Position numbers and translations under genes: made by a program. From NCBI GenBank assembly GCA_043228905.1, contig JBHGNT010000020.1, positions 2,976,001 to 3,040,000 of the forward strand: a stretch of DNA of 64,000 nt, in the 5' to 3' direction. The notes beneath the pieces were generated by a model. The model was not told the origin of the DNA and did not search any database. It was given only the letters and a program-made list of their open reading frames with translations. The stretch comes from Azolla caroliniana. Taxonomy: Eukaryota; Plantae; Polypodiophyta. Of this stretch, positions 6,198 to 63,458 are shown one piece after another; within the stretch, counting starts at the first letter, position 1; every line of letters begins with the position of its first letter.

Positions 6198-7852
6198 GCG
6201 GTCATTATTCCGGTACTCTTCCTCTTCCCGCTCTTCTTCATCGGAATACGGGTCGTTGTTACGGTGGTTGTGGAACTGTCTTTCTGTATTACGATAACGC
6301 TCATCCTGCCGGCCTTGGTCGTTACGGCAGTACTGCTGTTGCGGTTCCATGTGGTGAACTGTCGGGGTGGGTCTGTTCAACATATTATATTCGCACTAAT
6401 CCACCATATGTGCCCATGAATGGCAAATGGGGCAATGCATCCGCATGTTACATTCCACAGTAGAGTGTCTTGAGTTTTAAGCAAATTGTGCATTGAATGG
6501 CCTAGCAGAATCAATATTCCTCGTCCTAAGGCAAAGCCTGTCGGAGCGATGCCATGGATAGTCCTTCATCTTCCTCCTCTAATTCGAGCTGCAACGCCCA
6601 CTCGATGACCATATCCGCCGTCTCGCCTTTTGCACTGTGTGTGGTCAGCGTAGTCTTGATGTGTCGTCGCAAAGCTGCCAAAAACGTATCCTTGGCCTCT
6701 TCCTTTGTTGGGGCCCGTGTGAGTTGAGGTCGTAGACTCTAGAACCGCAAACTGAAATCTGCTACGGATTCTTTTGGAAGTTGCTTGATCGTATAAAACT
6801 GTTCGATAATTTCTCGTTGTGGCATGCTCCGATGGAAAAACCGCAAGAACACCGATTGCAGTTGGTCGAATGTTGTGAATGCTGTTAAATCTAGTTGGGA
6901 GTGTCTGCACACAACCCGACCATTCAGGGTTAGCCTGAACTCAGTGATCTTTGATTCGTGGGCTTTTGCCTCTGGAAACCGTTGTGGCATGTGGTTAGCA
7001 TTCCAGACGTTGAGGAACGACTGTATGTGGCTCACGGCGTTGGTTTCTCCGTTAAAACGGGGGTATGAGAAGGCCATTCTGGTCGCTACGGTGGTGCTAG
7101 GCCAGGGAAGGTTAATGTGTTGTGAAGCTTGGTCACACTATATTGGTCTCGTTGCAATAAGACTTTGTAATCAACACCGCTCTGTTCTGTGAGCGTGGAG
7201 TCTACCGTGTACTCCTGAAGAGAGGGGGTACGGTCGATGAGGCGGGGTTTCCGTGTAGTGCGTTCTTCCGTGTGGCAGGTAATGGATCTAGTTTGTGGTC
7301 GATCTTGTCGAGTAGGTTCTCTAACACGTCGGCGACTACACATCCATTCCTTGATGCTCGACTGCGAGGATTCACAAATCACCAGGCGTGCTAAAAGTGT
7401 TACCGGTTAGGAACACTGCCCACCCACAATCCTTTGAGGTAGGTTTCAAGGTGATCGTGGTCTAAGCGAATAGGAATGCGTAGTGCGTGAACAGTAAGGA
7501 CTTTACGCAGTAGAGCGGGGTCAAAGTCGTAAGGGAGACAGCTACAGCCGAGCCTCTGACTGTACGTGGATACACAACACACACTTACCCTATGCTTATT
7601 GCTACACAGTCATGTACAGAGAATGAAGTATGAGAGACAAGAGACTGATAGACAAAATACCAAGATCAGAGGAGACAAAAACTATATTAAACGGTGCTCT
7701 CCAAAATACGCTAGCCCTTTTACAGTGTTCTTTCACCCTTTATATACACAGGGCTTCTGATCGGTTACACTTCCTGAGTGAACCATTACATGCATTACTT
7801 TAACGCCCAAATATACTAATCTATTTACAATGCGTTATGGCCGGCGGTTACA

Positions 7853-8224: not shown

Positions 8225-10483
8225 GATCGTTGCGTGAGTCGGGTGGAAATTGTCGATGTTTTGGACTAGGAGAAGGAAGAATTTAAAGCAGATAAGATTG
8301 TGAATAGATTGAACGAGAGAGATAAGAAAAATTGTGAATCCTATTAGTATAATGTATTTTATTAATCAATATTTAGATAACAATATGAATTTAGATTGAA
8401 AGAGAGAGAAGAGATATAGAAAACTCGTGAATCCCACGATTATAATTTATTAGATTAATCTATATTTAAAACCCTAATAATCCCCAAGAATTTTTACCCC
8501 AATATTTATCACACCCAAATACATCTTGTTCCCATCCTTATATAGTGATGGGAGAGGCTTAGCACATAGCAATCCATGCTTTTTCTGACTTCATGCTTTT
8601 TTCTAACTTCATGGTTTTTCTAAAGTTATGGACTTTATCCTTTCTTTCTATCATGCTTTTTCTAAAAGTGTTCATGCACACTAGATGTGCTTGAGTAGCT
8701 TTTTCCTAGAAAATATGTGACATGATAACACTTTCTACCCCGAAAACTTTCATGATGTGTTAGTACAATGGTAAGGCTCGAAATTGTCAACATGGAGGTA
8801 CAGGGTTTGAATCTTGCCCTATGCATGTAACATATGTTTTAATATTTTTTCCTATTTCTTCATACTTATTCAATCGGTATTCCATACGTTTTTCACGTAG
8901 TGTACAAATTACACTATGACACTCGCCCCCTCCGAACCTGCACATCCTCCGGTATGTGCCGAAGTTTCCGGTGCTTGATATTCTTCGTCATTCGTAGTGC
9001 CCTCCGTTTCTCCCGCTATGTCGACTTTGTCTCTCCATTTTGAGCACGTCCATTCCTTCCACCTGAACCATTGTTGTGATCCGATCCACCATATTCTTCG
9101 TTCGTTCTTTGCATGGCCATGACCAGTTGTCATGGCTCCTTGTGCTCCTCCTGAGCATAACCCTTCATGTCTCGTCCATGTGCCACCTTCGTCCCGACTA
9201 TCTCCTTGTTCAAGGCACTTCAACATATTATTTATTCTTGTTCCGTGACTTCCTCCTCAAGGCCTTGTCCGAATACTGACGTTGACTTCCCCATGTAGTC
9301 TCTTCAAGTGCATGTCCACCTCTAGATCCTTATGCGACCATACTTCATGCTTCCCACTTTGTCCACCTTCGTTGTACAATCTTGCATTAGAGCCCTCCTT
9401 CTTTGCTGAGATCTCATCTTGGGTAATACCCTTCAAATCCGCTTGGCCCGCTTGGCACTTGTTGTCCCTAGTAGTGCGCCTGCTTGGCCTTTTCCTTGTG
9501 TTCATCAGCCTCGACCATTTCGATCTCCATCTGGGCCGGATTAGCTTCTTTCTAGATTGATCTCGTCCGATTGGCTTCCATTCGGATTTGCATTTGGCCG
9601 AATCGGACTTGGTCGATCGGTTTTGACCGAGTCGGCCCCCTTCCAAGTTGGGTTTGACCGATCAGTTTCCATCCGGGTTGGCTTCCGTTCGGATCAGAAT
9701 ACCGGTCGGATCATCTTCCATCCAAATCGACTTTTAGTTCTTCCTTTCTTTCCGCTCTTTGCCTCTTCATAGAACTCTGCCTTGCCGCAACCTTCCACCT
9801 CTTCGGTCTCATGTTGGTTCTCAAGCACAACTGCCGAAGTCTCCGGAAAAGGTATGGAGGAATCCCTATCTCTTTGATCAATCACAACCACCTCGTAGTA
9901 GTCGCCTGCATTGGCTTGGTCTTCCACTTTTCGCCTACCACCGTCTACCTCTCCGATCTCACGTTGGCCCTCGGGCACAACCACCGAAGTCTCTAGCATT
10001 AGTGGGCAAGAATCCTCGGCATTACTGTCCTCTGTCATTTCGCCCATATCCACCTTCTCGGATATCTCTCCGTCGTATGCTTCGACTTAGATCTTCGTTT
10101 CCTCCCCGCCACCTTCATCTCTTCAATCTCACGTTGGTTCTCAGATGCAGCCACCAAAGTCTCTAGAATTAGTGGGCAGGAATCCTGAACACCACCATAC
10201 ACCATTGAATCGACCTTAGCCACCTTCACCTCGATGTCTTTATCCGTGTCTATATCTTCAACTCCATAAGCCTCATACTCTTTGCCCTCCTCGATCATGC
10301 AAGCTTCGATTATGTTTACCCCTTCGTTACCCAATGTTTCAAACAATCTTGTCCCGAAACCTTCTTCCACCTTTGAAGTAGCATTCGCCACTCTTAAGTC
10401 ATCGGCCTTATTATTGGCCATCATTGTTTCACAAGACAAGAGGGTGTCTTGTTCCACACCCTCTCCCGTGGTAACATCGTATC
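8225..10483 (-). mobile_element. Fragment of pol-less Gypsy derivative: 3' LTR ~8225..8921 plus acidic-ORF internal region
   Basis: LTR start TGTCATAGTGTAATT (-) at 8921 resembles 54614/61193. PPT GGTTCGGAGGGGGCGAG is identical to that before 61193. Internal ORFs resemble 51299..53989. LTR 3' tip missing. Confidence 0.85.
8754..8825 (+). promoter_or_regulatory. tRNA-like (Asp-GTC-like) A/B-box cassette, antisense to its LTR
   Basis: TAGTACAATGGTAAG (A box), TTGTCAA loop, GGTTTGAATC (B box, one mismatch), tRNA spacing; stems decayed, so not a functional tRNA. Confidence 0.65.
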
Positions 10484-10861: not shown

Positions 10862-11078
10862 CCTCTACTACGTTCATTCCTATTATTATACTAATAACAA
10901 TATTAGTTAAATGGTCGACTGGTCGACTAGTTGAATCGACTAACTGTCATGAACACATGACCATTATGTAGCCTCTACTACGTTCATTCCTATTATTATA
11001 CTAATAACAGTATTAGTTAAATGGTCGATTGGTCGACTAGTCGAATCGACTAACTGTCATGAACACATGACCATTATG
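10862..11078. repeat. 110-bp tandem duplication spanning the host/chromovirus junction
   Basis: CCTCTACTACG...CCATTATG at 10862 and again at 10972; includes the first 24 nt of the inserted LTR. Confidence 0.9.
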
Positions 11079-11252
11079 GCGTCACCCGAACTTGAACTTC
11101 GAATCTTGTAATCCATAATTGAAAACCTCAACCATTTTGTTGTCGACGACTTCCATCGCCACTATCCAAACAAACCCGGCCCTAAAATGTTAACGCCGAC
11201 TTCCACTCGGCATTCTCGAAGAAGGGACAGTGTCATGAGCACATGACCATTA

Positions 11253-12890: not shown

Positions 12891-14600
12891 GTCCGCCAAA
12901 ATAGGAGCCATTTGGTTGGACAACCCTAGATATGTACAACCTAGTGTGGGTTCCATTTCTTCCAAGCATTTTAGTAGAGTCTTCTCAGCCCAAATACAAG
13001 TTAGGACACCGAGTTGTCAAGTCCAAGCCCTCTTCGACATTGGAGCCAATTCTTGTTTCATGGATAAAGATTTTGCCCAAAAACACCAAATATCCTTGCA
13101 TACACTTCCTTGTCCAGTTTCCGTAGTAGCGATTCATGGACATCCCATAGCTTTCGGGAAGATATTTGAAGAGTCTTAGCCAACACACATACTCTTAGGT
13201 GATTTAGGATGTGTAGTTTCCTTTAACATAAACCGCAGTCCTGAGTATCCAATTGTCCTCGGTTTGCCATGGTTCGAGCTACATAACCCTAGAATCGATT
13301 GATGGACGCGAGAAATTTGGTGCCCTTCAGCAGAAAATATCATTGCCAAGGATCGAACTCAAGATTATTCTCTTGAAGAATATAGTTCTACCAATGCACC
13401 AACTCCTTTTCATTAGATTTTAGCCATCACATTGCAACAATTGTGCCAACTAGGAGGCAAGGAGGACCTTTTCCTATTTGCAGTATCAATGACACCTTCT
13501 AGTGCCACTCAAGGGAATTGAGACATCCAAATTCCCAAAAAATATCAAGACTATGCTGATGTTTTCGACAAAGTCAAAGCTAGTGTTCTTCCAAAGCCTC
13601 GGCCGTACGACTGTCCTATTGAGATTTCGGGAAGATATTTGAAGAGTCTTAGCCAACACACATACTCTTAGGTAATTTAGGATGTGTAGTTTCCTTTTGT
13701 TAAGAATTAGGTAGGTAATTAAGAGTTAATTAGTACCTAATTATGTGAGAAAGTTAAGTGGAGAAGATTAAGTGATATGTGTGTATGTGTGTGAGAGGAA
13801 AAGAGAGAGAGAGAGAGAGATACACTTATGAATAACACAAGATGGGGGATGAGTAAGTATATTAACTTAGCATTATCATCATCTATCATCAAATACAAAA
13901 ATACCTTCAATGAGGTATATATAGGTTTCATGTGCAAGGGTGTGCACATGTGCTAGGAGAATATAGGTACAACGTGTAAGTCCTATATTAAATGAGCATG
14001 GAGTGGTGGATCTACAATGTATCCCACTCGAGTACAAAATCCTATTTAAGGCTTTATGGTCAACACACTAACTAGATTCTATCTAGGTAACTACTAAGTT
14101 ACATTTGTTGACTAACTAACTAAACTAAGTTGAGCTTGATCTCTCAACACGCCCCTTGAAGCTCAAGTGTGAGGCGGCCGACATGCGGCGTTATTTTCGG
14201 CATTGTCCGACTTTCGATGTCGGCTTCTGTGCGGCTTACGTCCGGCCTTCGGCTTTGTTCACCATGGCAATCTCGAGTCCTCCCCCTCAAGTCGGTGACA
14301 AAGGCTTGTAGCGTGTGGGTAATGGTCAACTACTTCCACCCATCGTGGGTTATGAGCCGCTTCGGTGGAGCTCTTGGGCTCTTGTTCGGCCGCTACCTTC
14401 ATCGCGAAGGCGTAATGATGGGCCATATACTCGTTGTTGTCGAGCCGCGTGACGGGGTTCTTAGCTCTAGATGAGCGTCGAAGTTTTTCGCTCGCCAATG
14501 TGAGCGCCTTCTTTACTCCGGGTGTCCGCATGATGGGTACACCGAACTCACTATCTAGTGAGGGAGCCGATCCATCCGAATCATTGTCGTCGGGGTGATC

Positions 14601-21745: not shown

Positions 21746-23957
21746 TTGTTTTGTGTCTTCCTTTTTGGCTCTTCTTTCTTCGATCACGTACTTGTGCTAC
21801 GTAGCGGCACTACGGTAGCAGATGACCAAAATTTGTTGTTGGCGTTTTGAGCACACAATCACGGAGTGTTGGGTGGGCTTAGTGGATATACAAAACCACA
21901 CGCTCTGATACCATGTTAAGAATTAGGTAGGTAATTAAGAGTTAATTAGTACCTAATTATGTGAGAAAGTTAAGTGCGGAAGATTAAGTGATATGTGTGT
22001 ATGTGTGTGAGAGGAAGAGAGAGAGAGAGAGAGAGATACACTTATGAATAACACATGATGGGGGATGAGTAAGTATATTAACTTAGCATTATCATCATAT
22101 ATCATCAAATACAAAAATACCTTCAATGAGGTATATATAGGTTTCATGTGCAAGGGTGCACATGTGCTAGGAGAATATATGTACAACTTGTAAGTCCTAT
22201 ATTAAATGAGCATGGAGTGGTGGATCTACAATGTATCCCACTCAAGTACAAAATCCTATTTAAGGCTTTATGGTCAACACACTAACTAGATTCTATCTAG
22301 GAAACTACTAAGTTACATGTGTTGACTAACTAACTAAACTAAGTTGAGCTTGATCTCTCAACACCTTTAACATAATCTGTAGTCCTGAGCATCCAATTGT
22401 CCTCGGTTTGCCATGGTTCGAGCTACATAATCCTAGAATTGATTGAAGGAAGCGAGAAATTTGGTGCCCTTCAGCAGAAAATATCATTGCCAAGGATCGA
22501 ACTCAGGATAATTCTCTTGAAGAATATAGTTCTAGCAATGCACCATCTCCTTTTCATCAGATGTTAGCCATCACATTACAACAATTGCACCAACTAGGAG
22601 GCAAGGAGGACCTTTTCCTATTTGCAGTATCAATGACACCTTCTAGTGCCACTCATGGGAATTCAGACAATCAAATTCCCAAAAAATATCAAGACTATGC
22701 TGATGTTTTCGACAAAGTCAAAGCTAGTGTTCTTCCAAAGCATCGGCCGTACGACTGTCCTATTGATCTCCGGCCAAAATAGGAGCCATTTGGTTGGACA
22801 ACCCTAGATATGTACAACCTAGTGTGTGTTCCATTTCTTCCAAGCATTTTAGTAGAGTCTTGTCAGCCCAAGTACAAGATAGGACACCGAGTTGTCAAGT
22901 CCAAGCCCTCTTTGACATTGGAGCCAATTCTTGTTTCATGGATAGAGATTTTGCCCAAAAACACAAAATATCCTTGCATCCACTTCCTTGTCCAGTTTTC
23001 GTAGTAGCGATTGATGGACGTCCCATAGCTTTCGGGAAGATATTTGAAGAGTCTTAGCCAACACACATACTCTTAGGTGATTTAGGATGTGTAGTTTCCT
23101 TTAACATAATCTGTAGTCCTGAGCATCCAATTGTCCTCGGTTTGCCATGGTTCGAGCTACATAACCCTAGAATCGATTGAAGGAAGCGAGAAATTTTGTG
23201 CCCTTCAGCAGAAAATATCATTGCCAAGGATCGAACTCAAGATTATTCTCTTGAAGAATATAGTTCTACCAATGCACCATCTCCTTTTCATCAGATTTTA
23301 GCCATCACATTGCAACAATTTCACCAACTAGGAGGCAAGGAGGACCTTTTCCTATTTGCAGTATCAGTGACACCTTCTAGTGCCACTCAAGGGAATTGAG
23401 ACATCCAAATTCCCAAAAAATATCAAGACTATGCTGATGTTTTCGACAAAGTCAAAGCTAGTGTTCTTCCAAAGCATTAGCCATACAACTGTCCTATTGA
23501 TCTCCAACTAGGAAAAGAGCCATCGTGGGATCCGATCTACAATTCATTACCCACTAAGCTTGAGGTTCTTCGAGAATACATCGAGGAAAATCTTGCACAT
23601 GGGTTTATTCGACATTCAAAGTCTCCAGTTGGTGCTCCTACCTTTTTTGTGAAGAAAAAGGACAACTCCCTTCGTTTGGTCGTGGACTATCGAGGCTTAA
23701 ATAAAGTCATTGTCATGATATGGCTAGACTCGAACCTATGAGCTTATGAATATTATTTTCATTTATGTTTTACTATAGAAAATTGATGTATATTCCAGAT
23801 TTCTCTAGAACATTCTAGAAGCTTCAGGAGTACTCCTGATAATATTATAAAAGGAGGCACAATGCATTATTTCGAACCAAATCGGTTCAACGCCAGTCTT
23901 AAGCCTCCTAGCCACTATTGTATATTCTCTTAACATAATATATATCTTTTGTTATCA

Positions 23958-26915: not shown

Positions 26916-27238
26916 TGTCATGATATGGCAAGACTCGAACCCATGACCTTATGGTATATGGGTCGAGCTCTTAACCATCACATCATCTTTTGTAATTTGT
27001 AGGATATTATTTTCATTTATGCTTTATTATAAGAAATTAATGTATATTCCAGATTTCTCTGGAACATTCTAGAAGCTTCAGGACTACTCTTGAGAGCACT
27101 ATATAAGGAGGCACAAGGCATTGTTTTGAACCAAATTGGTTCAACGCCAATCTTAAGCCTCTTAGCCACTTTGCACTTATCCTTCACATAATATATTAGT
27201 TGTTATCATCATCCCTCTCTCTCTCTCTCTCATCCTCG

Positions 27239-30300: not shown

Positions 30301-32596
30301 AAGAGTACATCATGTGCCTTTCCATTCGCGCAAATTCAATGCTGCGGAAATCAACTACGAAATACATGACAAGGAGTTATTAGCCATCGTGGATTCATTT
30401 GTGCAATGGCGGCATTTTTTGGAGGGCTCTCCACATCAGGTCATCGTCTTCAGTGATCACAAGAATCTTTCTTATTTCCAAAACACCCGTATGGTAAATC
30501 GACGGCAAGCTAGGTGGGCTCAATTCCACACACGTTTTGATTTCAAAATTGCATATCAACCGGGGAAGCAGCAAGGAAAGGCAGATGCACTATCACGACG
30601 TTCATATCTTGCACCTCGTCCTGGTGATCCAACGTTCGATAATCAAAAGCAAGTAATCTTGGGACCAACACGATTGCACACAACGCGAAATTTCCACACC
30701 CCAATGGATTCCCAGATTACTGACACCATACGTGCGAACTTGAAGACGAACAATTTTGCTCATGACATTCTGGCGCACATTGATACCTCTCGGGCATCCT
30801 ATTCCCAGTCTCAACAACCAGGTATGGACTATCGACAATTCGAATATCATGATGGTTTGTTATTCTTTAAAAAGCTTGTATATGTCCCCGATTGGCGGGA
30901 CATTTCGGTAGCATTAAGACGTGGGATCTAGTTCAACGATCCTTTTGGTGGCCCCATATGTGACATTTTGTCGACGACTACGTTCGGACCTGTGATGCTT
31001 GCTGCCAAGCAAAGATGCCATGACACCATCCACATGGCTTGTTGGAACCCTTATCGATGCCAAGTAAGACGTGACAGTCTATTTGTCTTGACTTTATCAT
31101 AGATCTACCGGTCTCGAAGGGGTTTGATGCTATCTTAACCGTCGTCGATCGATATATGAAGATGGCACATTTTGTGCCGTGTACTAAGGCCATCACTAGC
31201 GAGGAAGCCGCCACCCTTGTCATGCGTGAGGTATTTCGGTATCATGGCCTCCCAGACAGTATCATCAGTGACCGAGAACCGCAATTCGTCTCCCAATTTT
31301 GGCAGCATCTCTTCAAGATGCTCAAGGTCTCTTGCAACCTCTCCTTCGGCTACCATCCTCAGACCGATGGGCAGGCCGAACGAACAAACCAAATGTTGGA
31401 GCAATATCTCTAGTGTTTCCTGAGTTATCAACAAGAAGATTGGGCCGAGATTCTCCACTTTGTGGAGTTTGCGTATAATAATGTTCATTCCTCGACTCCT
31501 GTCTCCCCATTCTACGCTTATATTGGTTCTCATCCTCGCTAGTTGGTGATCGACACCTCGGAGCTACCTACCAATCCTCGTGCCGCGGATCATTTGGAGA
31601 GACTATGCAAGATCCAAATGGATCTCTCTACTCAACAGACACAGAAGACTTACGCAGATTGTCATCGGCTTCCCTCCTCTTTTGCCATTGGAGATCGAGT
31701 ATGGGTTTTACGTCGTCCCATCAAGACTACGCGACCGTGCGACAAGTTGGATTATCGCTGAATCGGTCCTTTCCGTATTACCGGTAAGGTTAATGATGTC
31801 ACGTTCCGCCTTGATCTTCCTCCGCATCTTTGGATACATCTGGTCTTCCATGGTTCTCTTTTTGAACCTTATAAAGCAAACACTATTCCCGATCGTGTTA
31901 CACCACCGCCGCCCCCGCTTGAGTTAGACACCGGCCCGGAGTATGAAGTTGTTGCCATCCTCAACTCCAAATTTGTTCACAACAAACTTTATTATTTGGT
32001 CGATTGGCTTGGCTATAGTTCGAAGCGAATGTACTTGGGAGCCCGTCAAGCATGTCACCAATGCTCAGGATCTTCTTGTTGATTTTCACCGACAAACCTG
32101 GTCCTCAATCAACGTTGACTCGTTCCACTCATCGTCTTAAGGGGGGGGATAGTGTCATGATATGGCAAGACTCGAACCCATGACCTTATAGTATATGGGT
32201 TGAGTTCTTAACCATCACACTATCTATTGTAATTTGTAGGATATTATTTTCATTTATGCTTTATTATAAGAAATTAATGTATATTCTAGATTTCTCTAGA
32301 ACATTCTAGAAGCTTTAGGACTACTCGTGAGAGCACTATATAAGGAGGCACAAGGCATTGTTTTGAACCAAATTGGTTCAACGCCAGTCTTAAGCCTCTT
32401 AGCCACTTTGTACTTATCCATCACTTAATATATTAGTTGTTATCATCATCCCTCTCTCTCTCTCTCATCCTCGCTATCTCTCTCTCCTCTTCTCTCTTTC
32501 TCTCTCGGGAATCTTACACAGTCCCATTCTCTTAGTATTAATAGTACTTCTCTTCTTTAGTACTAATTCTCTCTCTGCTTAGTACTATTCCTGACA
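26916..32596 (+). mobile_element. Full-length decayed chromovirus (family B) inserted in RT of B'
   Basis: TSD TCGAC/TTGGC (host TCGGC, one transition each); LTRs 26916..27435 and 32153..32596; gag 27507..28664; pol 28665..32140; G-rich PPT before 32153. Confidence 0.93.
32157..32225 (-). promoter_or_regulatory. tRNA-like A/B-box cassette at the terminus of family-B LTR (also ~26920..26990, ~35075..35145)
   Basis: Minus strand TAGTGTGATGGTTAAGA ... AGGTC ATGGG TTCGAGTC with canonical tRNA spacing. Confidence 0.75.
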
Positions 32597-36190: not shown

Positions 36191-39100
36191 GTATGCTCTA
36201 CCTTTAATCTCCAGTCTTTTAGAACGCATTGGTAGGGAGAAACATTTTACCAAATTTGACCGGGAGATGAGTGGAAAACTGCATTTCGTACTCGGTATGG
36301 TCATTTCGAGTATATAGTCATGCCTTTCGGCCTCACAAATGCACCCGTAGTATTTCAACATATGGCAAAAGACATTTTCCGAGATTTCTTGGATATCTTT
36401 CTCATCATCTACCTAGATGATCGGTTGATTTACTCTAAAACACAGGACGAGCATGATATACATGTGCGGAAAGTACTTGAACGCCTAAGAAAGTATGGTC
36501 TTTATGCCAAACTTGAGAAATGAAGTCTTGATTGCAAACAAATCGAATTTTTGGGATACACTATTTCATCCAAGGGTATTTTCATGGATCCGGGAAAAGT
36601 CCAAACAATATTGGAATGGAAACCCCCATGCTCAGTTCGGGACGTCTAGTGTTTCCTCGGATTTGCAAACTTCTATCGCAAATTCATACGTAATTATTCA
36701 AGAATTGTGTTGCCCCTCACCCAACTCACCAAGAAAAATCAAGCATTTTTTTGGAGTATCGAAAGAGGTATTCACATCAGCACCTATCATAGCGCATATT
36801 GATCCCGAAAAGCAGTTTACTATTGAGGCGGATGTGTCAGACTTCACATTGGAAAGTATTCTATCGCAACCAGGCGAGGATGGGCAGCCTCATCTAGTCA
36901 CGTTTCACTCGGGAAAATTTACTGTTTTGGAGATAAAGTATGAGGTGCATGACAAGGAGTTACTAGCTATGGTTGACTCATTCGATTCTCAATGACGTCA
37001 TTTTCTAAAATGATCACCTCATCAGATTATCATTTATAGTGATCACAAAAATCTCACATATTTTCAAACAACTCGAGTATTAAATAAACGACAAGCTCGG
37101 TGGGCCCAATTTCTAACGCGTTTCAATTTCAAGATCATTTTTCGCCCTGGAAAACAACAAGGGAAAGCAAATGCGTTGTCTCGGCGTTCGTATCTTGCTC
37201 TTCGACATGGAGATCCAACCTTTGACAATCAAAAGCAGATTCTCCTCGGGCTATCAAAGCTACAGGCAACAACAATTTATGCCACACCACTTGCTTCTAG
37301 CCTTCTTGACACTATTAGGCAACAACTTCACTCTGATGATTTCACTAAGGATGTCTTAGCCCACATTGGTTCAAGCCGTCCATCTTGCTCCACATTGCAA
37401 GGGTCATCTCAACATTATTAGGACTTTACGTCCCTGACGGATCACCCCGACTTCAAGTGTTAGAACATTGTTATGATGCCCCCATGGCTGAACATTTTGG
37501 TATTGCCAATACCATTGACCTGGTGAAACGTTCGTTTTGGTGGCATCACTTGCAAAAATTTGTCGAAGATTACGTTCACACAAAAGACACCTGTTGTCGC
37601 GCCAAAATACCCAGGCATCATCCTTATGGCTTACTACAACCATTACCACCTCCCAGGAAGCCATGACAATCTATTTCTATAGATTTCATTACGGATCTGC
37701 CACCTTCCAAAGGCTTTGATAGTATTTTAACAATAGTGGATCGGTTCACAAAGATGGCACATTTTGTACCGTGTGTAAAGACCATTAGTAGTGAAGAAAC
37801 TGCAAATCTCATTATGCGTGAGGTGTTTCGCCATCATGGTCTCCCAAATGATATTATTAGCGATCGAGGTCCTCAATTTATCTCACACTTTTGGAAGCAC
37901 CTATGGATAGGCCTCAAAATCTCTTGCAAACACTCTTCGGCTTATCATCCATAAACTGACGGACAAACAGAGCGCACAAATCAAACACTTGAGCAGTATC
38001 TTCGATGCTTTATCAGTTATCAACAAGATGATTGGAGCAATATTTTACATCTTGCCGAGTTTGCATACAACAACACCGTACACTCTTCTACCAAAGTTAC
38101 ACCTTTCTTTGCCTACACTGGCAACCACCCTCGATGGTGTTTCTTGGATCTTCCTGAGGTGTCACAAAACCCTAGTGCGGCGCATCACCTCCACTGACTA
38201 CAACAAATCCAGTTTGAGTTATCTTCACATCTTCAAAAAGCGCAAGCACACCATAAGACCAATGTCGATCGGCATTGTCTTAAGTCTCCTTTCAAGGTTG
38301 GTGACCGAGTATGGTTGCTTTGTCGTCACATCAAGGCTACCCGTCCGTGTGCTAAGCTCGATTATCAACTCGATTATCGATCCTTTTGTCATCACAACGC
38401 GGATTAATGATGCAACATTTCGTCTTAACCTTCTTGCACATATGCGGCTTCACTCAGTCTTTCATAGCTCTCTTTTGGAACCTTGTTGCACCTCTTTAAT
38501 TCCTAATCGTGTCGTACCACCACCGTCTTCTGTCCAACTGGTTGACGTCCCCGAATACAAGGTAGTTGCTATTCTTAATTCTAAGATTGTGCGCAATAAG
38601 CTTTATTATCTAGTTGATTGACTTGGCTATCCTCCGAGTGATCGCACTTGGGAACCTATCGATAACATTTGTAATGCTCAAGCATTTTGATGTCGACGAC
38701 TTCCATCACCACTATCCAAACAAACCTGGCTCTACAACTTCAACTCGACATTCTCGAAGAAGGGATAGTGTCATGAGCACATGACCATTATGGCGTCACC
38801 CGGACTTGAACCTCGAACCTTGTAATCCATAATTGAAAACCTGAACCATTAAGATAGCTTATTGTCATATGAGAAGATAAAATCTACTTTTTGTATTACA
38901 TTGATTATTGTAAAAACTGTAGATCATTCTAGAATGTCCTAGAACATTCTAAAACATTCTAGAAATCTCTTAGCTATTCTATAGGAACCTATAAAGAAGG
39001 GCATACATGTATTCTCAAATCAATTCGAATCAACACCAGTCTTAAGCTCTCATTGCATATCTTGTATCCATTCTCTTTCTTTCTCTATCTTAATACACCC

Positions 39101-39649
39101 ATTATTCTCTTAGCATTTCGTTCCTTTCTTCTCGTGTTTCCTTATATCCTTCTTCCATCTATCTTTTATATCTTTTATTCTTGGTTCTAACACTAACCGA
39201 CTCAAGTGTCGACTATCCAGTCAGGCCGACTAGTCGGTCGTGTCTTCGACTTGGATCACCTTTTATACTGTCGACTCCCCCTTGTCATCGACAATCGGCT
39301 ACACCTTGTCTTCGACTGTCGGCTCTCGGCCCGACCAGTCGGCTCCTCCCATAAGAGTGACATATTCCTAACAAACTCCCCCTTCACTCCTATGGGTGGA
39401 GTTGGTTAGTCCTGTCCTTTGTCGACAAAGTCTGAATCTGTCCATTGGTAGGTTCTTAGTCATCATGTCGGATCCATTGTCGTCAGTATGGATCTTCGCA
39501 AGGGTAAAATATCCTTCCTCCACTTCCTCCCACAACCATCGAGATCTCCTCTATATATTCTTGGTCAGGGAATGGTACACAACGTTATTGGCTAGATGTA
39601 TGGTGCTTTGGCTGTCACAATGAAGCAAGAACCCCTTGTGCTTCATCCC

Positions 39650-47041: not shown

Positions 47042-48613
47042 TGTCACGGACACACCAACCGCAGACTAGGACGGAGCACGGATGACAAGGCTACGAGGAA
47101 CTTAAGAAGTTAGGAACGACATAAGAGAATGAAGATAGAGATGAAGAAGGAGACGAGATGGAATGAAACGACACTACTAGATTGATGTGTCAATAAATGG
47201 TGTTGAATCCCTTGAAAGGGACAAAGGCGGTTACAAGTATTTATACTTTGAGTTGAAGTACATGCATTAGAATATTCTGGAGATTATTCGGGAGAATATT
47301 CTAGAACCCTCTAGAACCTTCTAGTTCTAGAACTTTCTAAAAGGACTTGAAATCGATAATCTACTATTAATCTACTAAGATATGTATAACATGATTATAT
47401 ATTTGGTTGTGTTGGTCAGAACACAACACTTGACTATATACAAGAGGTCAAGAGTTCAAATCTTGACATGATTGTTGTCATGTCTGTGACATTATCCTCC
47501 CCTTCACGGCCGCCTTTTCGAAAGCGTAGTGTAGGGGTGAGCTGAAAGAGAAAACCAAAGTACATTGAGGAGTGAGTGACTATGAGCAGTCCTCACCATA
47601 AATAGGAGTACGGATGAACGCGAGCGACCGTGTGTGATCCTCACCAGAGACTAGAACACCAACGAGCATGAGAGACCATGTACAATCCTCACCGGAGACA
47701 GTAACACCAATGTGAGTGTGAGTCACCATGTTTGGTCCACACCGGAGACTAGAACACCAATGTGAGTGTGAGCGACAATGTATGTGAACTGAAACACAAA
47801 CGGGCATGAGCAACCATGTACGGTCCTCACTGGAGATTGAAACACCAATGTGAGTGACCATATGCGATCCTCATCGGAGACAGGAACACCAACGGATGTC
47901 AGCGACGACCATGTGCGGTCCTCACCGGGAACTGGAACACTAACGGACGTGAACGACCATGTGCGGTACTCACCGGGAATTGGAACACCAATGGGTATGA
48001 GCGACCATGTACGGTCCTCAATAGAGACACGAACACCAAGGGCGTGAGAGACCATGTACGGTCTTCACTGGAGACAGGAAAACCAATGGAAATGAGCGAC
48101 CATGTACGGTCCTCATCAGGAACTAGAACACCAACAGGCGTGAGCAACCATGTGCGGTCCTCACCGGAGACACGAACACCAACGGACATGAGCGACCATG
48201 TGCGATCCTCACCGGGAATTGGAACACCAATGAGCCTGAGAGACCATGTACGGTCCTCACCGTAGACACGAACACCGAAGGGCGTGAACGACCATGTGCG
48301 GTCCTCATTTGGTGTGTCCATGACAGTTTGAATCCCTTGAAAGGGAAAAAGGAGGTTACAAGTATTTATACTTTGAATCGAAGTACATGCATTAGAATAT
48401 TTTGGAGATTATTCGGGGGAATATTCTAGAACCTTCTAGTTCTAGAACTTTCTAAAAACTCCTAGGAATTGAAATCAATAATCTACTAATAATCTACTAA
48501 GATATATATAGCATGATCATATATTTGGATGTGTTGGTTAAAACACAACACTTGACTATATACAGGAGGTCAAGTGTTCAAATCTTGACATGACTGTTGT
48601 CATGTCTCTGACA
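47042..48613 (-). mobile_element. 1.57-kb non-autonomous chromovirus-type mini-element
   Basis: TSD AGCTC (47037..47041 / 48614..48618); complete 3' LTR 47042..47491; PPT GAAGGGGAGGATAA (-); 5' LTR only U3 + R start (48328..48613); no gag/pol. Confidence 0.9.
47575..48308. repeat. 48-bp minisatellite, about 15 degenerate units
   Basis: Unit ~GAGCGACCATGTRCGGTCCTCACCGGAGACACGAACACCAACGGGCGT; period 47-48 counted at 48003/48050/48098/48146; translates as a 16-aa repeat (EDRTWS...). Confidence 0.92.
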
Positions 48614-53989: not shown

Positions 53990-54950
53990 CAAAGACGCTA
54001 AGGACTCGGTTGATCGCCATGGCCGAAAATCTCACCTCTTTCCCCTTCTTGGCACATACCGGTGGATGTGCGGTTTGGTGGGGGCGGATGTAGTGAAGAT
54101 TTTCATCCATAGGCGGAAACCGGGGTGGAAAGGGCAAGTCAGTGGTGTGCAACATGTGCACACGTATACTAGGAAATGGTGTATAGAAATAAGAGGGGAA
54201 ATTTTATCCCACATTGTAAGGTCCCTCCCTCCTTGGGCTATAAAAGGAAGGGAGGGGTCACTTCTGAAGGGTTGCCTATTTTGCGTATGAAAGGTATACC
54301 ACTTAGTCTAGAGTTCTTACCGTTTTAGGGTTAAGGTTTCGTTTAGGGTTTACTAGTTCATCCCCGGTTAGGGTTTTCTCATAGTCGTTTGGTTTGGCCC
54401 ATGCGGCCACCATTGTTGTAATCATTCGTTTGTTTTAATATATCTTGTTGAGTATCTTAACTCCGCCGATCTCTCCTTCTATGTCGTGATCTTATTCTTT
54501 CTTCTTCTCCTCTTGAGCTAAGCTTCCAAAACATATCTTATTCTTTCTCCTCTACTCCCTAGTCTGAGACCCCCGTGGTCCCGCCCCTTCTACACACACA
54601 TGCGTAACAACGTTGTCGTAGTGTAATTCGCACACTACGTGAAAAATTACATTTTTGGTTTCTCCGGATAGGATATAAAGTACCCAGTGAGAACTGGAAG
54701 GAAGAACTGGTGAGGACCGAAACCGGTAAGGAGAACGGCAAGAGCCAGATGAAGAAGGCTGGTGAGAGTCGGTGAGAAACGGACGAAGAGGACCGGTAAG
54801 GAGGATCCGGTAAGAACCGGATAAAGAAAACCGGCGAGGACCGGATGAAGCAGAACCGACAAGAGCCGGATGAAGAAGGCTGGTGAGAGTCTCTCACCAG
54901 ATGAAGAGACATATTTGTAAATAGAAGAAAGTATAAAATTATATATTACA

Positions 54951-55022
54951 TGGATAGGACAAGATTCGAACCTTGCACCTCCATGTTAATAATGTTAAGC
55001 CTTATCATTATACTAGCGTATT
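54951..55022 (-). promoter_or_regulatory. tRNA-like A/B-box cassette in U3 (also ~61373..61444)
   Basis: Minus strand TAGTATAATGATAAGG ... GGAGGTGCAAGGTTCGAATCTTGTCCTATCCA. Confidence 0.65.
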
Positions 55023-55563
55023 ATCAATTTTCAAGTTATACTAAACTTTATCCCATGTAAAATTTCTAGACATGCATGGTACAAAAAGTTATTCATGCAT
55101 AGACACTCGAGTTAAGAGAAAAGATGAGATAGAAAGCTAATCATGCACATGCAGTGTGCATGAAAACTAAAGATAGGAAAAGCATGATGCTTGCATGTGA
55201 TAAACTTAGACTCTTCCAACACTATATAAGGAAGAGAGAAAGATGTATAGAGGTTGTTGATTATTTTACAAGGATTTTGATCAATCTAATATATTCATGG
55301 GATTCACGATGTTTTTTTCCATCTATTTCTCTCTTACATTCTAAGTATAAATTAATAGTAACACTATACTCGTGGGATTCACGAGTTTCATATCTTCTTT
55401 CAAATATTTCTCTTTCTTGCAATCGATTCATAAGGAGCCTTATCTCATATTCTTCTTTCTCCTAGTCCAAAACCTCAGCGGTCCCACCCGACTCACGCAA
55501 CAATCCGGAACCGAAAGGCACGACACAAGTGGTGAACCCGACGTGAACACGAGTGGCAAGGAG

Positions 55564-61136: not shown

Positions 61137-63458
61137 CAAGCATCGGGGACTTCGGCACATACCGAAGGATGTGCGGGTTCGGAGGGGGCGAGTGTCGTAG
61201 TGTAATTCGGATAGGATATGGAGTACCCAGTGAGAACCGGAAGGAAGAACCGGTGAGGATTGAAACCGATAAGGAGACCGGCAAGAGCCGGATGAAGAAG
61301 GCCGGTGAGAGTCTCTCACCATATGAAGAGACATATTTGTAAATAGAAGAAAGTATAAAATTATATATTACATGCATAGGACAAGATTCAAACCTTGCAC
61401 CTCCATGTTAATAATGTTAAGCCTTATCATTATACTAGCATATTATGAATTTTCAAGTTATACTAAACTTTATCCCATGTAAAATTTCTAGACATGCATG
61501 GTACAAAATGTTATTCATGCATACACACTCGAGTTAAAAGAAAAGATGAGATAGAAAGCTAATCATGCACATGCAGTGTGCATGAAAACTAAAGATAGGA
61601 AAAGCATGATGCTTGCATGTGATAAACTTAGACTCTTCCAACACTATATAAGGAAGAGAGAAAGATGTATAGAGGTTGTTGATTATTTTACAAGGATTTT
61701 GATCAATCTAATATATTCGTGGGATTCACGATTTTTTTTTCCATCTATTTCTCTCTTACATTCTAAGTATCAATTAATACACTATACTCGTGGGATTCAC
61801 GAGTTTCATATCTTCTTTCAAATATTTCTCTTTCTTGCAATCGATTCATAAGGAGCCTTATCTCATATTCTTCTTTCTCCTAGTCCAAAACCTCAGCGGT
61901 TCCCACCCAACTCACGCAACAATCCGGAGCCGAAAGGCACGACAACACGACACCGTATATTCACGTCAAATGCACGTTGTCGACAAAATTTGACGAATTC
62001 CTTATATTTGAACTCTCCTCCATTATTGGTCCGAAGACATTTGAGTTTTTGGCCGGACTGATTTTCGACCATAGCGAGCCAATCAGAGAAAATCAAGAAC
62101 ACTCAATCTTTGGTCTTTATCGGATACACCCACACCTTCCGAGTCGAGTTGTCAATAAAGTTGACAAAATACAAGGCACCTCCGAGAGACAGATGTAGCA
62201 TAGGGCCACAGATGTCCAAGTGGACCAAATTGAGTGGACTTGATTCTCTTAGTGCTGATGTCGGGCGTGATGCGGCTATCTGTTTGTCGTACTGACAAAT
62301 GCTCGCAAAACTGATGATCAGAGAAGGAGAGTTTAAGGATGTATCCAGCTCTGGATAAATGCATGATGCCAGCCTTGCTGTGGTGTCTGAGTCGTCTGTG
62401 CCATAATGATGACACGGGAATGTCAACCATGAATAGGCCACTCTCTCTGAGTGTGGCGTATAACGGGTACAACGAATGTACTTTCGGTCCTCGAGCAAGT
62501 AGGAGGTTCCCCATGTGGAGTGTCCACCCTCCTGATGAGAGGCTGACATGGATGCCATCTTCGTCCAGTTGTCCAACCGAGATCAAAGGTCTTGGGAGCT
62601 CAGGTACGTATCAGACATTGTGTAGTACCAATGTAGAGCCACCTAGAAGGTTGAGCTCTACAGTGCCGATTCCGATTATCGCACAGTGTTGCGAATTTCC
62701 GACTCGGACTGAGTCGGAATATTGGGCCGAGTATTGCCGAAATTGGGATCGATGAGGAATCACGTGATATGAAGCACCCGAGTCCAAGAACCAAGTGCTT
62801 GACTCTTTAGTCGTAAGCTGAACTTTTGATTCGACTGATTTTTTGATGAACAAGATGTTCGGGTCGTTTGACAGTATTTCGGCCGAAGAGTCGACGTAAT
62901 TGACGTCCTCATGCCAACCATTCTTCTTATCAGCTCACTGAGCCTTATCGTTTTTGGCTTTGAGTGTGTGGCAATCGGTTTTGATGTGTCAGGGTTTCTT
63001 GGAATAATTGCAGACTCGATTATCCTGGGACATGCTCCGAGTTCGTTGGTTGTTCGGTTGTTGTGAAGAACCTCTTCCTCGACTGTGAAGAACCTTGTAC
63101 TACGTAAGAGTCGTTGGCGGAATCGTTCACAAAAGATTTTCTTTGAGTTGCTTCAGTTAGAATTGCACTTGTGACTAGGAGTACTTAACGGCAACAATTG
63201 ATGCATTGCACACAATTGTAACGAAAGTTTCCCACGAAGGGGGGAGACTACTCATAAGCAGCATTGCTCTTAGTTCATACTCAATAGTCTTCCCTTGAGC
63301 CGTAATTTGGGAACTTAAGCTTTCGTACTTGTTGAGGTGTGCCTAGACCGAATCAAATTCTTTCATCTGAAGGTTATAAAGGTACCGAATCAGATATATC
63401 TTCGTAGCGGCTACCTTCTTTTCGTAGGTGTCTGAGAGTGTCTTCCATAGTTGGAAGG

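What the first reader, a model, noticed from the sequence alone, without database searches (positions are those of the whole stretch)
32153..32225. Antisense tRNA-like Pol III cassette built into the U3 start of chromovirus LTRs
Seen: the chromovirus-type LTRs (5770, 11231, 26916, 32153, 35071, 38769, mini-element 47404..47473 and ~48524..48595; partial at 11055 and 23711) carry a ~70-nt minus-sense unit within ~25 nt of the terminal TG. It has an A box (TAGTGTGATGG, TATCTTAATGG), an AGGT(C/T) variable loop and a B box (GGTTCGAGTC, GGTTCAAGTC, AGTTCAAATC). Spacing is canonical in A and B and ~5 nt longer in the mini-element. Boxes and spacing persist while acceptor and anticodon arms have drifted. 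Family A resembles a C>T-decayed tRNA-Arg(ACG) from memory. Established: Cassandra TRIMs carry 5S Pol III promoters in their LTRs, and B-boxes/TFIIIC can act as chromatin barriers. Inference: a tRNA-type analogue arranged tRNA-like > HSE > TATA > self-primer, possibly insulating the promoter in heterochromatin or making outward/antisense RNA. I know of no description of this but cannot search.
Basis: partly seen in the sequence, partly recalled or inferred. Interest (0 to 1): 0.85.

Follow-up and report, generated by a model that had tools for sequence, protein, structure and literature searches.

The report
Backwards tRNA promoter in retrotransposon LTRs
Many families of protein-coding plant jumping genes keep, at the outer edge of their end repeats and pointing outwards, the two promoter boxes of a tRNA gene at tRNA spacing while the tRNA fold has decayed, and these boxes likely bind the tRNA-gene transcription factors and would help keep the element's own promoter open in silenced chromatin.

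Summary
All 8 intact window copies beat 300 of 300 shuffles of a tRNA A/B-box profile. The unit is also in 14 of 20 chromovirus LTRs from one record series and in 0 of 20 from other records. Across 11 families, box positions are 85-95% conserved and stem positions 51-61%. A-to-B spacing is canonical in 11 of 11, and acceptor and T stems do not pair. It is therefore a promoter relic, not a tRNA; Rfam and ARAGORN miss it and covariance scores are weak. The unit is antisense to the element wherever I found it. It occurs in two separate chromovirus clades and in a non-chromovirus LTR, and probably also in frame inside one pol gene. The closest known elements, Helenus TRIMs, carry tRNA promoters in sense and are non-autonomous, so this is a new variant. 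Best reading (0.45, untested): a TFIIIC/TFIIIB site back to back with the Pol II promoter that shields it. The scan noted LTR-borne Pol III boxes before, in a gut-fungus-like genome.

The parts
32158..32229 (-). tRNA-like unit (positions 1-72) in the 3' LTR of family A1
   Evidence: 24.8 bits, 0 of 300 shuffles reach it; parse
32212..32222 (-). A box (tRNA positions 8-19)
32182..32186 (-). variable-loop pentamer (44-48), part of the extended B-box signature
   Evidence: extended consensus in PMC3159450; match
32169..32177 (-). B box (53-61)
   Evidence: no variant at 5% or more at the matching sites in 4 runs
32230..32274 (-). AT-rich stretch upstream of the unit, predicted TFIIIB seat
   Evidence: 84% AT; 78-87% in 10 of 10 families with enough flank, plus copy A2
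32139..32152 (+). polypurine tract before the 3' LTR
   Evidence: sequence
32153..32596 (+). 3' LTR of chromovirus A1
   Evidence: 95% to 26916 over the first 358 nt; target duplication 3 of 5
32299..32317 (+). HSE-like nGAAn/nTTCn repeats
32337..32343 (+). TATA box of the element's predicted Pol II promoter
32373..32381 (+). predicted self-primer (complement of the PBS after the 5' LTR)
   Evidence: 9-nt match in A1, 14 in A2, 12 in B1, with different sequence in each family
26921..26992 (-). unit in the 5' LTR of A1 (26916)
   Evidence: 20.6 bits
35076..35147 (-). unit in the 3' LTR of A2 (35071)
   Evidence: 23.1 bits
11254..11325 (-). unit in LTR B1 (11231)
   Evidence: 22.3 bits profile; CM 14.7 bits, E 0.047
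38792..38863 (-). unit in the 3' LTR of B1 (38769)
   Evidence: 19.2 bits; CM 12.3 bits
5795..5865 (-). unit in the 3' LTR of B2 (5770)
   Evidence: 15.3 bits
47397..47472 (+). unit in the mini-element LTR; the element lies on the minus strand, so the unit is antisense
   Evidence: 16.0 bits; CM 13.3 bits
48517..48595 (+). unit in the second mini-element LTR (approximate ends)
   Evidence: 7.2 bits, 0 of 300 shuffles reach it
11055..11136 (+). partial LTR B1, broken inside the A box
23711..23750 (+). start of the 5' LTR of A2; B box kept, A box deleted
54953..55022 (-). antisense unit in the LTR of a non-chromodomain Ty3/gypsy element (not in the finding)
   Evidence: 18.3 bits; no Chromo hit in its ORFs
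61375..61444 (-). same unit in that element's other LTR
   Evidence: 13.5 bits
8754..8823 (+). unit in a related non-chromovirus LTR lying on the minus strand
   Evidence: 20.1 bits; inverted similarity of the LTR
13337..13408 (-). probable second unit, in frame in the protease-RT linker of family B; also near 22481-22552, 23215-23286 and 1918-1989
   Evidence: 12-18.5 bits; coincides with the 22-27-residue insert relative to family A; not above the reversed-window maximum on its own

Best explanation
The unit is a decayed tRNA gene, placed backwards at the outer end of the LTR, whose promoter boxes are conserved across families and likely bind TFIIIC and TFIIIB, which would help keep the element's neighbouring Pol II promoter open in heterochromatin. 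Shown: (1) tRNA-type boxes at class-I spacing; (2) conservation of boxes, not of fold; (3) antisense orientation; (4) an AT-rich stretch where TFIIIB would sit, 20-150 nt short of the TATA box; (5) carriers are coding, self-priming chromoviruses sitting in a nest of retrotransposons. Inferred: TFIIIC binds A+B and loads TFIIIB inward, giving a divergent Pol III/Pol II promoter pair. The complex would act as a nucleosome-poor barrier against silencing that spreads from the flank, as the fission-yeast centromeric tDNA does. The antisense orientation likely keeps a tRNA-like RNA and a co-directional Pol III start out of the element's own transcript. Any outward Pol III RNA would be a by-product.
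For: Modal frequency over 11 families: A box 0.88, B box 0.85, positions 44-48 0.95, against 0.51-0.53 for acceptor and anticodon arms (Mann-Whitney p 9e-7, families not independent). Spacing is 34-35 nt in 11 of 11. Watson-Crick pairing of the acceptor (0.25) and T stem (0.45) equals the swapped-family control (0.26, 0.43); real tRNAs give 0.83 and 0.89. The extended internal B-box consensus of PMC3159450 is met exactly in 6 of 11 and with one mismatch in 5 of 11. In 360,710 nt of loci, 15 of 16 hits at 9 bits or more are antisense, and 12 lie 69-93 nt from an LTR start. Upstream AT is 78-87% against 46-71% for the next 100 nt and 40-76% at the same offset in 23 LTRs without the unit; plant tDNAs have AT-rich upstream motifs (PMC7544208). 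In family A, positions 44-65 show one variable site of 22 at 5% or more in 4 runs, against 10 of 15 just upstream. A tDNA barrier needs the A box and upstream TATA and works in either orientation (PMC2040200). Self-priming removes the need for a tRNA partner.
Against: No binding, chromatin or reporter data were tested. The unit is absent or decayed in 6 of 20 LTRs of the same record series, two of them named as high-coverage contigs (L132, L135), and in 20 of 20 from other records, so it is dispensable. The plant CAA motif is in only 2 of 10 families, and a TATA-like word at -45 to -15 in 5 of 11 copies tested. Sister LTRs show no significant protection of the boxes after insertion (2 of 109 against 87 of 1837, p 0.23). 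Within family A the 5' half of the anticodon arm is as invariant as the boxes, and A-box positions 8-14 all vary. Arabidopsis tDNA clusters in heterochromatin are themselves silenced by methylation (PMC7544208), and B2 SINE boundaries can lower neighbouring expression (PMC8136502). A barrier does not need a fixed orientation, so that has to be explained separately.
Confidence: 0.45

Rival explanations
1. The outward Pol III transcript is the selected product: an antisense RNA over U3 and the polypurine tract that regulates the element or feeds small-RNA pathways, as foamy-virus U3 Pol III genes make functional RNAs.
For: A box, spacing and fixed orientation are all kept, which suits real initiation. 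Pol III genes in U3 of autonomous retroviruses are shown (PMC3993851).
Against: A T4 terminator lies within 40 nt in only 5 of 11 families. From a 5' LTR the RNA would run into arbitrary flank. The transcribed body is not conserved in sequence or in acceptor/T pairing.
Confidence: 0.2
2. The unit acts in the genomic RNA as an anti-tRNA that pairs with a host tRNA or tRNA fragment to aid packaging or strand transfer, like the Ty3 bipartite PBS or the tRNA-Lys3-like segment of HIV-1 U3-R (both recalled; the paper was not held).
For: Orientation and place in U3 fit, and the longest conserved run (44-61) is the part that is most alike among tRNAs.
Against: The chromoviruses self-prime (PMC6317226). 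Conservation is punctate: stem positions between the motifs vary, which would break a duplex.
Confidence: 0.1
3. The unit is a landing pad for Pol III-targeting elements, as earlier scan notes propose for a fungal genome.
For: Ty3 and TRE5-A target TFIIIC/TFIIIB sites (PMC3159450). The window is full of nested insertions. The scan notes are a lead only.
Against: In 8 of 8 sister-copy alignments across the unit and its upstream stretch, the largest gap is 0-20 nt, so no element has inserted there. Being a target would not by itself keep the boxes under selection in the carrier.
Confidence: 0.08
4. The unit is a neutral relic of a tRNA or SINE-head insertion, kept because the LTR tip is constrained for integration or because another protein binds there.
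For: LTR ends are conserved anyway. Losses occur. D and anticodon stems keep slight pairing above the control (p 0.02, 0.04), as a relic would.
Against: The B box lies 24-48 nt from the chromovirus LTR end and about 175 nt in for the non-chromovirus LTR. The inner U3 of most family pairs does not align (4 pairs with hits among 10 families), yet boxes and spacing persist.
Confidence: 0.17

Closest known systems
Helenus TRIMs (TRIMp3; Kojima 2024, PMC10886601; parts 1-4 and 6 of 6 read, supplement passages seen)
   Same: tRNA-derived sequence in LTRs, boxes A and B conserved, tRNA function unlikely, present in a non-seed plant (Helenus-1_SMo).
   Different: Helenus is non-autonomous (311-1263 bp) and tRNA-primed. 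Its unit is in sense in the four LTR entries I saw in the supplement and is proposed to transcribe the element. Here the carriers encode gag-pol, self-prime and keep a TATA promoter, and the unit points outwards. The paper expects autonomous partners not to share such LTRs. It also says 'not a few LTRs' in Repbase hold part of a tRNA and followed up only the TRIMs.
Cassandra and Ajax (5S-type TRIMp3; as described in PMC10886601)
   Same: Pol III internal promoter inside the LTR.
   Different: 5S (type 1) boxes, non-autonomous, used to transcribe the element itself.
Tcn1-clade chromoviruses of mosses, lycophytes and ferns (PMC2864245, PMC6317226; passages read)
   Same: Chromodomain with aromatic cage, self-priming, TG..CA LTRs of about 420-520 bp, PPT.
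   Different: The passages found by my search terms mention no tRNA-like unit in the LTR. Their supplements were not read.
Foamy-virus U3 Pol III miRNA genes (PMC3993851; passages read)
   Same: A/B-box Pol III promoters inside U3 of an autonomous retroelement, beside its Pol II promoter.
   Different: They have hairpins and terminators and yield defined miRNAs. No tRNA layout is described in the passages seen.
S. pombe cen1 tDNA-Ala barrier (PMC2040200) and B2 SINE boundaries (PMC8136502); passages read
   Same: Works-like model: a tRNA-type promoter at the edge of a Pol II unit limits the spread of chromatin marks.
   Different: These are host loci or SINEs, not a built-in part of an LTR. 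The yeast barrier is an intact tRNA gene.

Membership tests
Helenus (TRIMp3) | tRNA-derived sequence with boxes A and B in the LTR | tested here: met
Helenus (TRIMp3) | short non-autonomous TRIM without coding capacity | tested here: not met
   gag, RT, RNase H, integrase and chromodomain between the LTRs; the non-coding mini-element is 1.57 kb
Helenus (TRIMp3) | unit in sense, able to transcribe the element | tested here: not met
   15 of 16 hits antisense in loci; sense scores at most 1.9 bits in 44 LTR starts; Helenus entries seen are sense
Helenus (TRIMp3) | tRNA-complementary PBS | tested here: not met
   the PBS matches the element's own R start in A1, A2 and B1
Functional tRNA gene | cloverleaf with paired acceptor, anticodon and T stems | tested here: not met
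   WC pairing 0.25, 0.38 and 0.45 against 0.83-0.89; ARAGORN and Rfam blank
Type-2 Pol III promoter | A box and B box at tRNA spacing | tested here: met
   11 of 11 families
Type-2 Pol III promoter | plant upstream elements (AT-rich/TATA-like, CAA) and poly-T terminator | tested here: inconclusive
   AT-rich in all tested; CAA 2 of 10; T4 5 of 11
Type-2 Pol III promoter | TFIIIC/TFIIIB/Pol III occupancy and transcription | not testable with these tools
   needs ChIP or raw stranded RNA
tRNA-derived SINE | head followed by body, tail and its own target duplication | tested here: not met
   no shared sequence after position 72; the LTR ends 5-25 nt later in families A and B
Tcn1 chromovirus | chromodomain with aromatic cage | tested here: met
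   PF00385 E 1.6e-12; Y, W, Y residues seen in one copy
Tcn1 chromovirus | self-priming instead of tRNA priming | tested here: met
   9, 14 and 12 nt; A1 falls just under the 10-nt rule of PMC6317226
Tcn1 chromovirus | RT-RH-INT groups with reference Tcn1 elements | not tested
   no reference sequences on hand; named hits are fungal and amphibian Tf1/sushi-like proteins at about 45-60%
tDNA chromatin barrier | blocks spread of silencing, dependent on the boxes | not testable with these tools
   needs a reporter or methylome data

The most novel reading that the evidence does not exclude
Autonomous LTR retrotransposons that live in heterochromatin have repeatedly captured a host tRNA backwards and kept only its promoter as a built-in, mobile insulator. 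It would have been gained separately in chromovirus and non-chromovirus LTRs and once more in frame inside pol, and it would seed the genome with very many TFIIIC sites.
Probability: 0.4. Interest if true: 0.82.

Novelty: new variant of a known kind. Interest (0 to 1): 0.64.

Why it matters
How chromodomain-guided elements are transcribed from inside heterochromatin is an open question; that chromodomains target heterochromatin is recalled knowledge. A conserved Pol III factor site beside the Pol II promoter gives a direct test: mutate two short boxes and read expression and methylation. It also extends Pol III promoters in LTRs from parasitic TRIMs to autonomous elements, against the expectation stated in PMC10886601. 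Because family A is very abundant in four organisms' runs, the units could be a large pool of TFIIIC sites that tRNA finders miss.

Tried and rejected
Rfam scans of the whole window and of the 106-nt stretch gave no tRNA hit. ARAGORN at lowered thresholds was noise: 35 calls at -ps80 and 118 at -ps75. My covariance model was weak per copy: window best 14.7 bits; in 26 loci best 22.3 bits, E 4e-4, with 12 of 22 hits antisense at LTR starts. No whole genome is held, so no genome-wide counts were possible. No RNA holder was listed. Viral contigs gave 1 chromovirus-like locus. Nearest-tRNA search against 233 viral tRNA calls gave no consistent isotype. Sister-LTR substitution test was not significant. 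Single-contig deletions of the unit are no rarer than deletions elsewhere in U3, so they say nothing. Nine other LTR stretches in the window score at most 5.4 bits. No structure or complex jobs were run, as no protein binding is claimed. Literature searches that returned no description of an antisense unit in autonomous LTRs. The library lacks most subscription papers and Repbase Reports.

Full report
SETTING. The window is a nest of LTR retrotransposons. Of 27 ORFs scanned, all those with Pfam hits are gag, pol or chromodomain pieces of Ty3/gypsy and Ty1/copia elements, apart from two DUF families on the same ORFs. No whole genome is held. The host is likely a non-seed plant (inference): the closest named relatives of one pol are from Riccia, Adiantum and Calypogeia. 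The chromoviruses have an aromatic-cage chromodomain. They also have a PBS complementary to their own R start, over 9, 14 and 12 nt with a different sequence in each family. PMC6317226 (passages) gives both features for the Tcn1 clade.

IS IT REAL? ARAGORN and Rfam find nothing. I therefore fetched viral tRNAs and kept 77 class-I genes of 233 calls that do not match my search pattern. From them I built a covariance model and a box-and-spacing profile. The covariance model is weak per copy: best 14.7 bits in the window, and 32153 is not among its 15 hits. The profile is clear: 8 of 8 intact copies beat 300 of 300 shuffles of their own first 140 nt, while the two broken copies score below zero. 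The best window scores (20-25 bits) exceed 12 shuffled windows (maximum 15.7) and the reversed window (17.8).

UNBIASED SURVEY. I fetched 81 loci by their chromodomain, not by their LTR. In 360,710 nt the profile gives 16 hits at 9 bits or more. Fifteen are antisense: 12 lie 69-93 nt from an LTR start and 3 lie in a pol linker (one of these a duplicate contig). One is in sense at 9.1 bits. An LTR start could be set for 40 of the 81 loci. Of these, 4 were set by hand; 2 further automatic calls were dropped, and 29 mostly low-identity loci were not put through the looser rule. Of 20 LTRs from one record series (names beginning ERZ), 14 carry the unit, in about 10 families; of 20 from other records, none does. 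On a tree of 44 integrase-chromodomain rows the carriers fall in two supported clades (97/94 and 100/97), and the second is sister to elements without the unit. That means two gains, or one gain with losses; I did not run a one-clade test. A non-chromovirus LTR in the window carries the same kind of unit, also antisense. Nine other LTR stretches in the window do not.

WHAT IS CONSERVED. I compared 11 family representatives, chosen because they carry the unit. Modal frequency is 0.88 (A box), 0.85 (B box) and 0.95 (positions 44-48), against 0.51-0.61 for the arms. Spacing is 34-35 nt in 11 of 11. Acceptor and T stems pair no better than strands swapped between families; D and anticodon stems are slightly above (p 0.02, 0.04; not corrected for kinship) but far below real tRNAs. 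The conserved pentamer matches the GTC signature of tRNA-internal B boxes in PMC3159450 (passages): exact in 6 of 11, one mismatch in 5. Across contigs of four DNA runs, family A shows one variable site of 22 over positions 44-65, 4 of 17 in the anticodon arm, 0 of 5 in the A-box core, 7 of 7 at positions 8-14 and 10 of 15 just upstream. At positions 9, 10 and 14 the common variants stay within the tRNA consensus. Positions 21-35 are also invariant, so within one family the boxes do not stand out; the cross-family test carries the claim. The 45 nt upstream are 78-87% AT. CAA (2 of 10) and a T4 terminator (5 of 11) are not conserved.

A SECOND CAPTURE. The protease-RT linker of family B is 103-108 residues against 78-81 in family A. 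The extra block coincides with codons 27-51, whose antisense strand is another tRNA-like unit. Its scores (12-18.5 bits) are at the level of the reversed-window maximum, so it is probable, not proven. Copying of a packaged tRNA during plus-strand synthesis would give this orientation (inference).

HOW IT LIKELY WORKS. Motifs and spacing kept, with fold lost, point to protein recognition of DNA. TFIIIC binds A+B and loads TFIIIB upstream (PMC2040200, passages). Here upstream means inward, on the AT-rich stretch next to the HSE-like repeats and TATA box. The simplest benefit to an element living in a retrotransposon nest is an open promoter. The fission-yeast tDNA barrier needs the A box and TATA and ignores orientation. 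Against this, plant tDNA clusters can be silenced by methylation (PMC7544208, passages), many relatives lack the unit, and sister LTRs show no significant protection of the boxes. I put this reading at 0.45, a functional outward RNA at 0.20, a relic or other constraint at 0.17, anti-tRNA pairing at 0.10 and a landing pad at 0.08. The landing pad came as a lead from scan notes e1-10420520 and e1-10420559. Eight of 8 sister alignments here show no insertion upstream of the unit.

COMPARISON AND NOVELTY. This finding fails three Helenus features: it is coding, antisense and self-primed. The paper notes that other Repbase LTRs hold tRNA parts, without analysis, so the bare fact may be known to curators. 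Foamy-virus U3 Pol III genes (PMC3993851, passages) show that such promoters can work in autonomous retroelements. Seven searches returned no description of a conserved antisense unit in autonomous LTRs. Supplements of PMC2864245 and PMC6317226, which hold element sequences, were not read and could bear on its distribution. The scan has no look-alike of this sequence but noted LTR-borne Pol III boxes in another genome. Verdict: real, selected, a new variant of a known kind, function untested; interest 0.64.

Noticed in passing
window 13337-13408, 22481-22552, 23215-23286, 1918-1989; L122:998-1070 and 6322-6391: Family B has a 22-27-residue insert in the protease-RT linker whose antisense strand is a second tRNA-like unit, in frame; the residues shared by B1 and B2 fall on the boxes.
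   Followed up: partly
window 54797-55525, 61217-61944, 8225-8830: A non-chromodomain Ty3/gypsy element (closest named relatives in liverworts and a fern) also has an antisense unit in its LTR; its PBS looks tRNA-type (Trp, from recall).
   Followed up: partly
window 47042-48613: The mini-element has a perfect 5-bp target duplication. Its first LTR stops at the self-primer and runs into an inverted copy of the U5 end, then 48-bp tandem repeats: a possible fossil of the self-priming hairpin that still moved as a unit. Its LTR resembles that of coding element L145.
   Followed up: partly
window 11050-11230 and 39193-39197: The 'partial' LTR at 11055 is the true left end of a 28-kb nested B1 element (5-bp duplication matches at 39193); it jumps from the A box to the chromodomain tail and a second LTR.
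   Followed up: yes
window 32373-32383: The predicted self-primer of family A itself reads like a B box on the sense strand; family B's does not, so this may be chance.
   Followed up: no
L142, L146, L147, L152, L134, L136, L139, L140, L141, L151, L188: Chromovirus LTRs from other records start with short tandem repeats where these families have the tRNA-like unit.
   Followed up: no
L132, L138, L143, L163: Decayed or distorted units (B-box remnant, shifted spacing) in related families suggest stepwise loss.
   Followed up: partly
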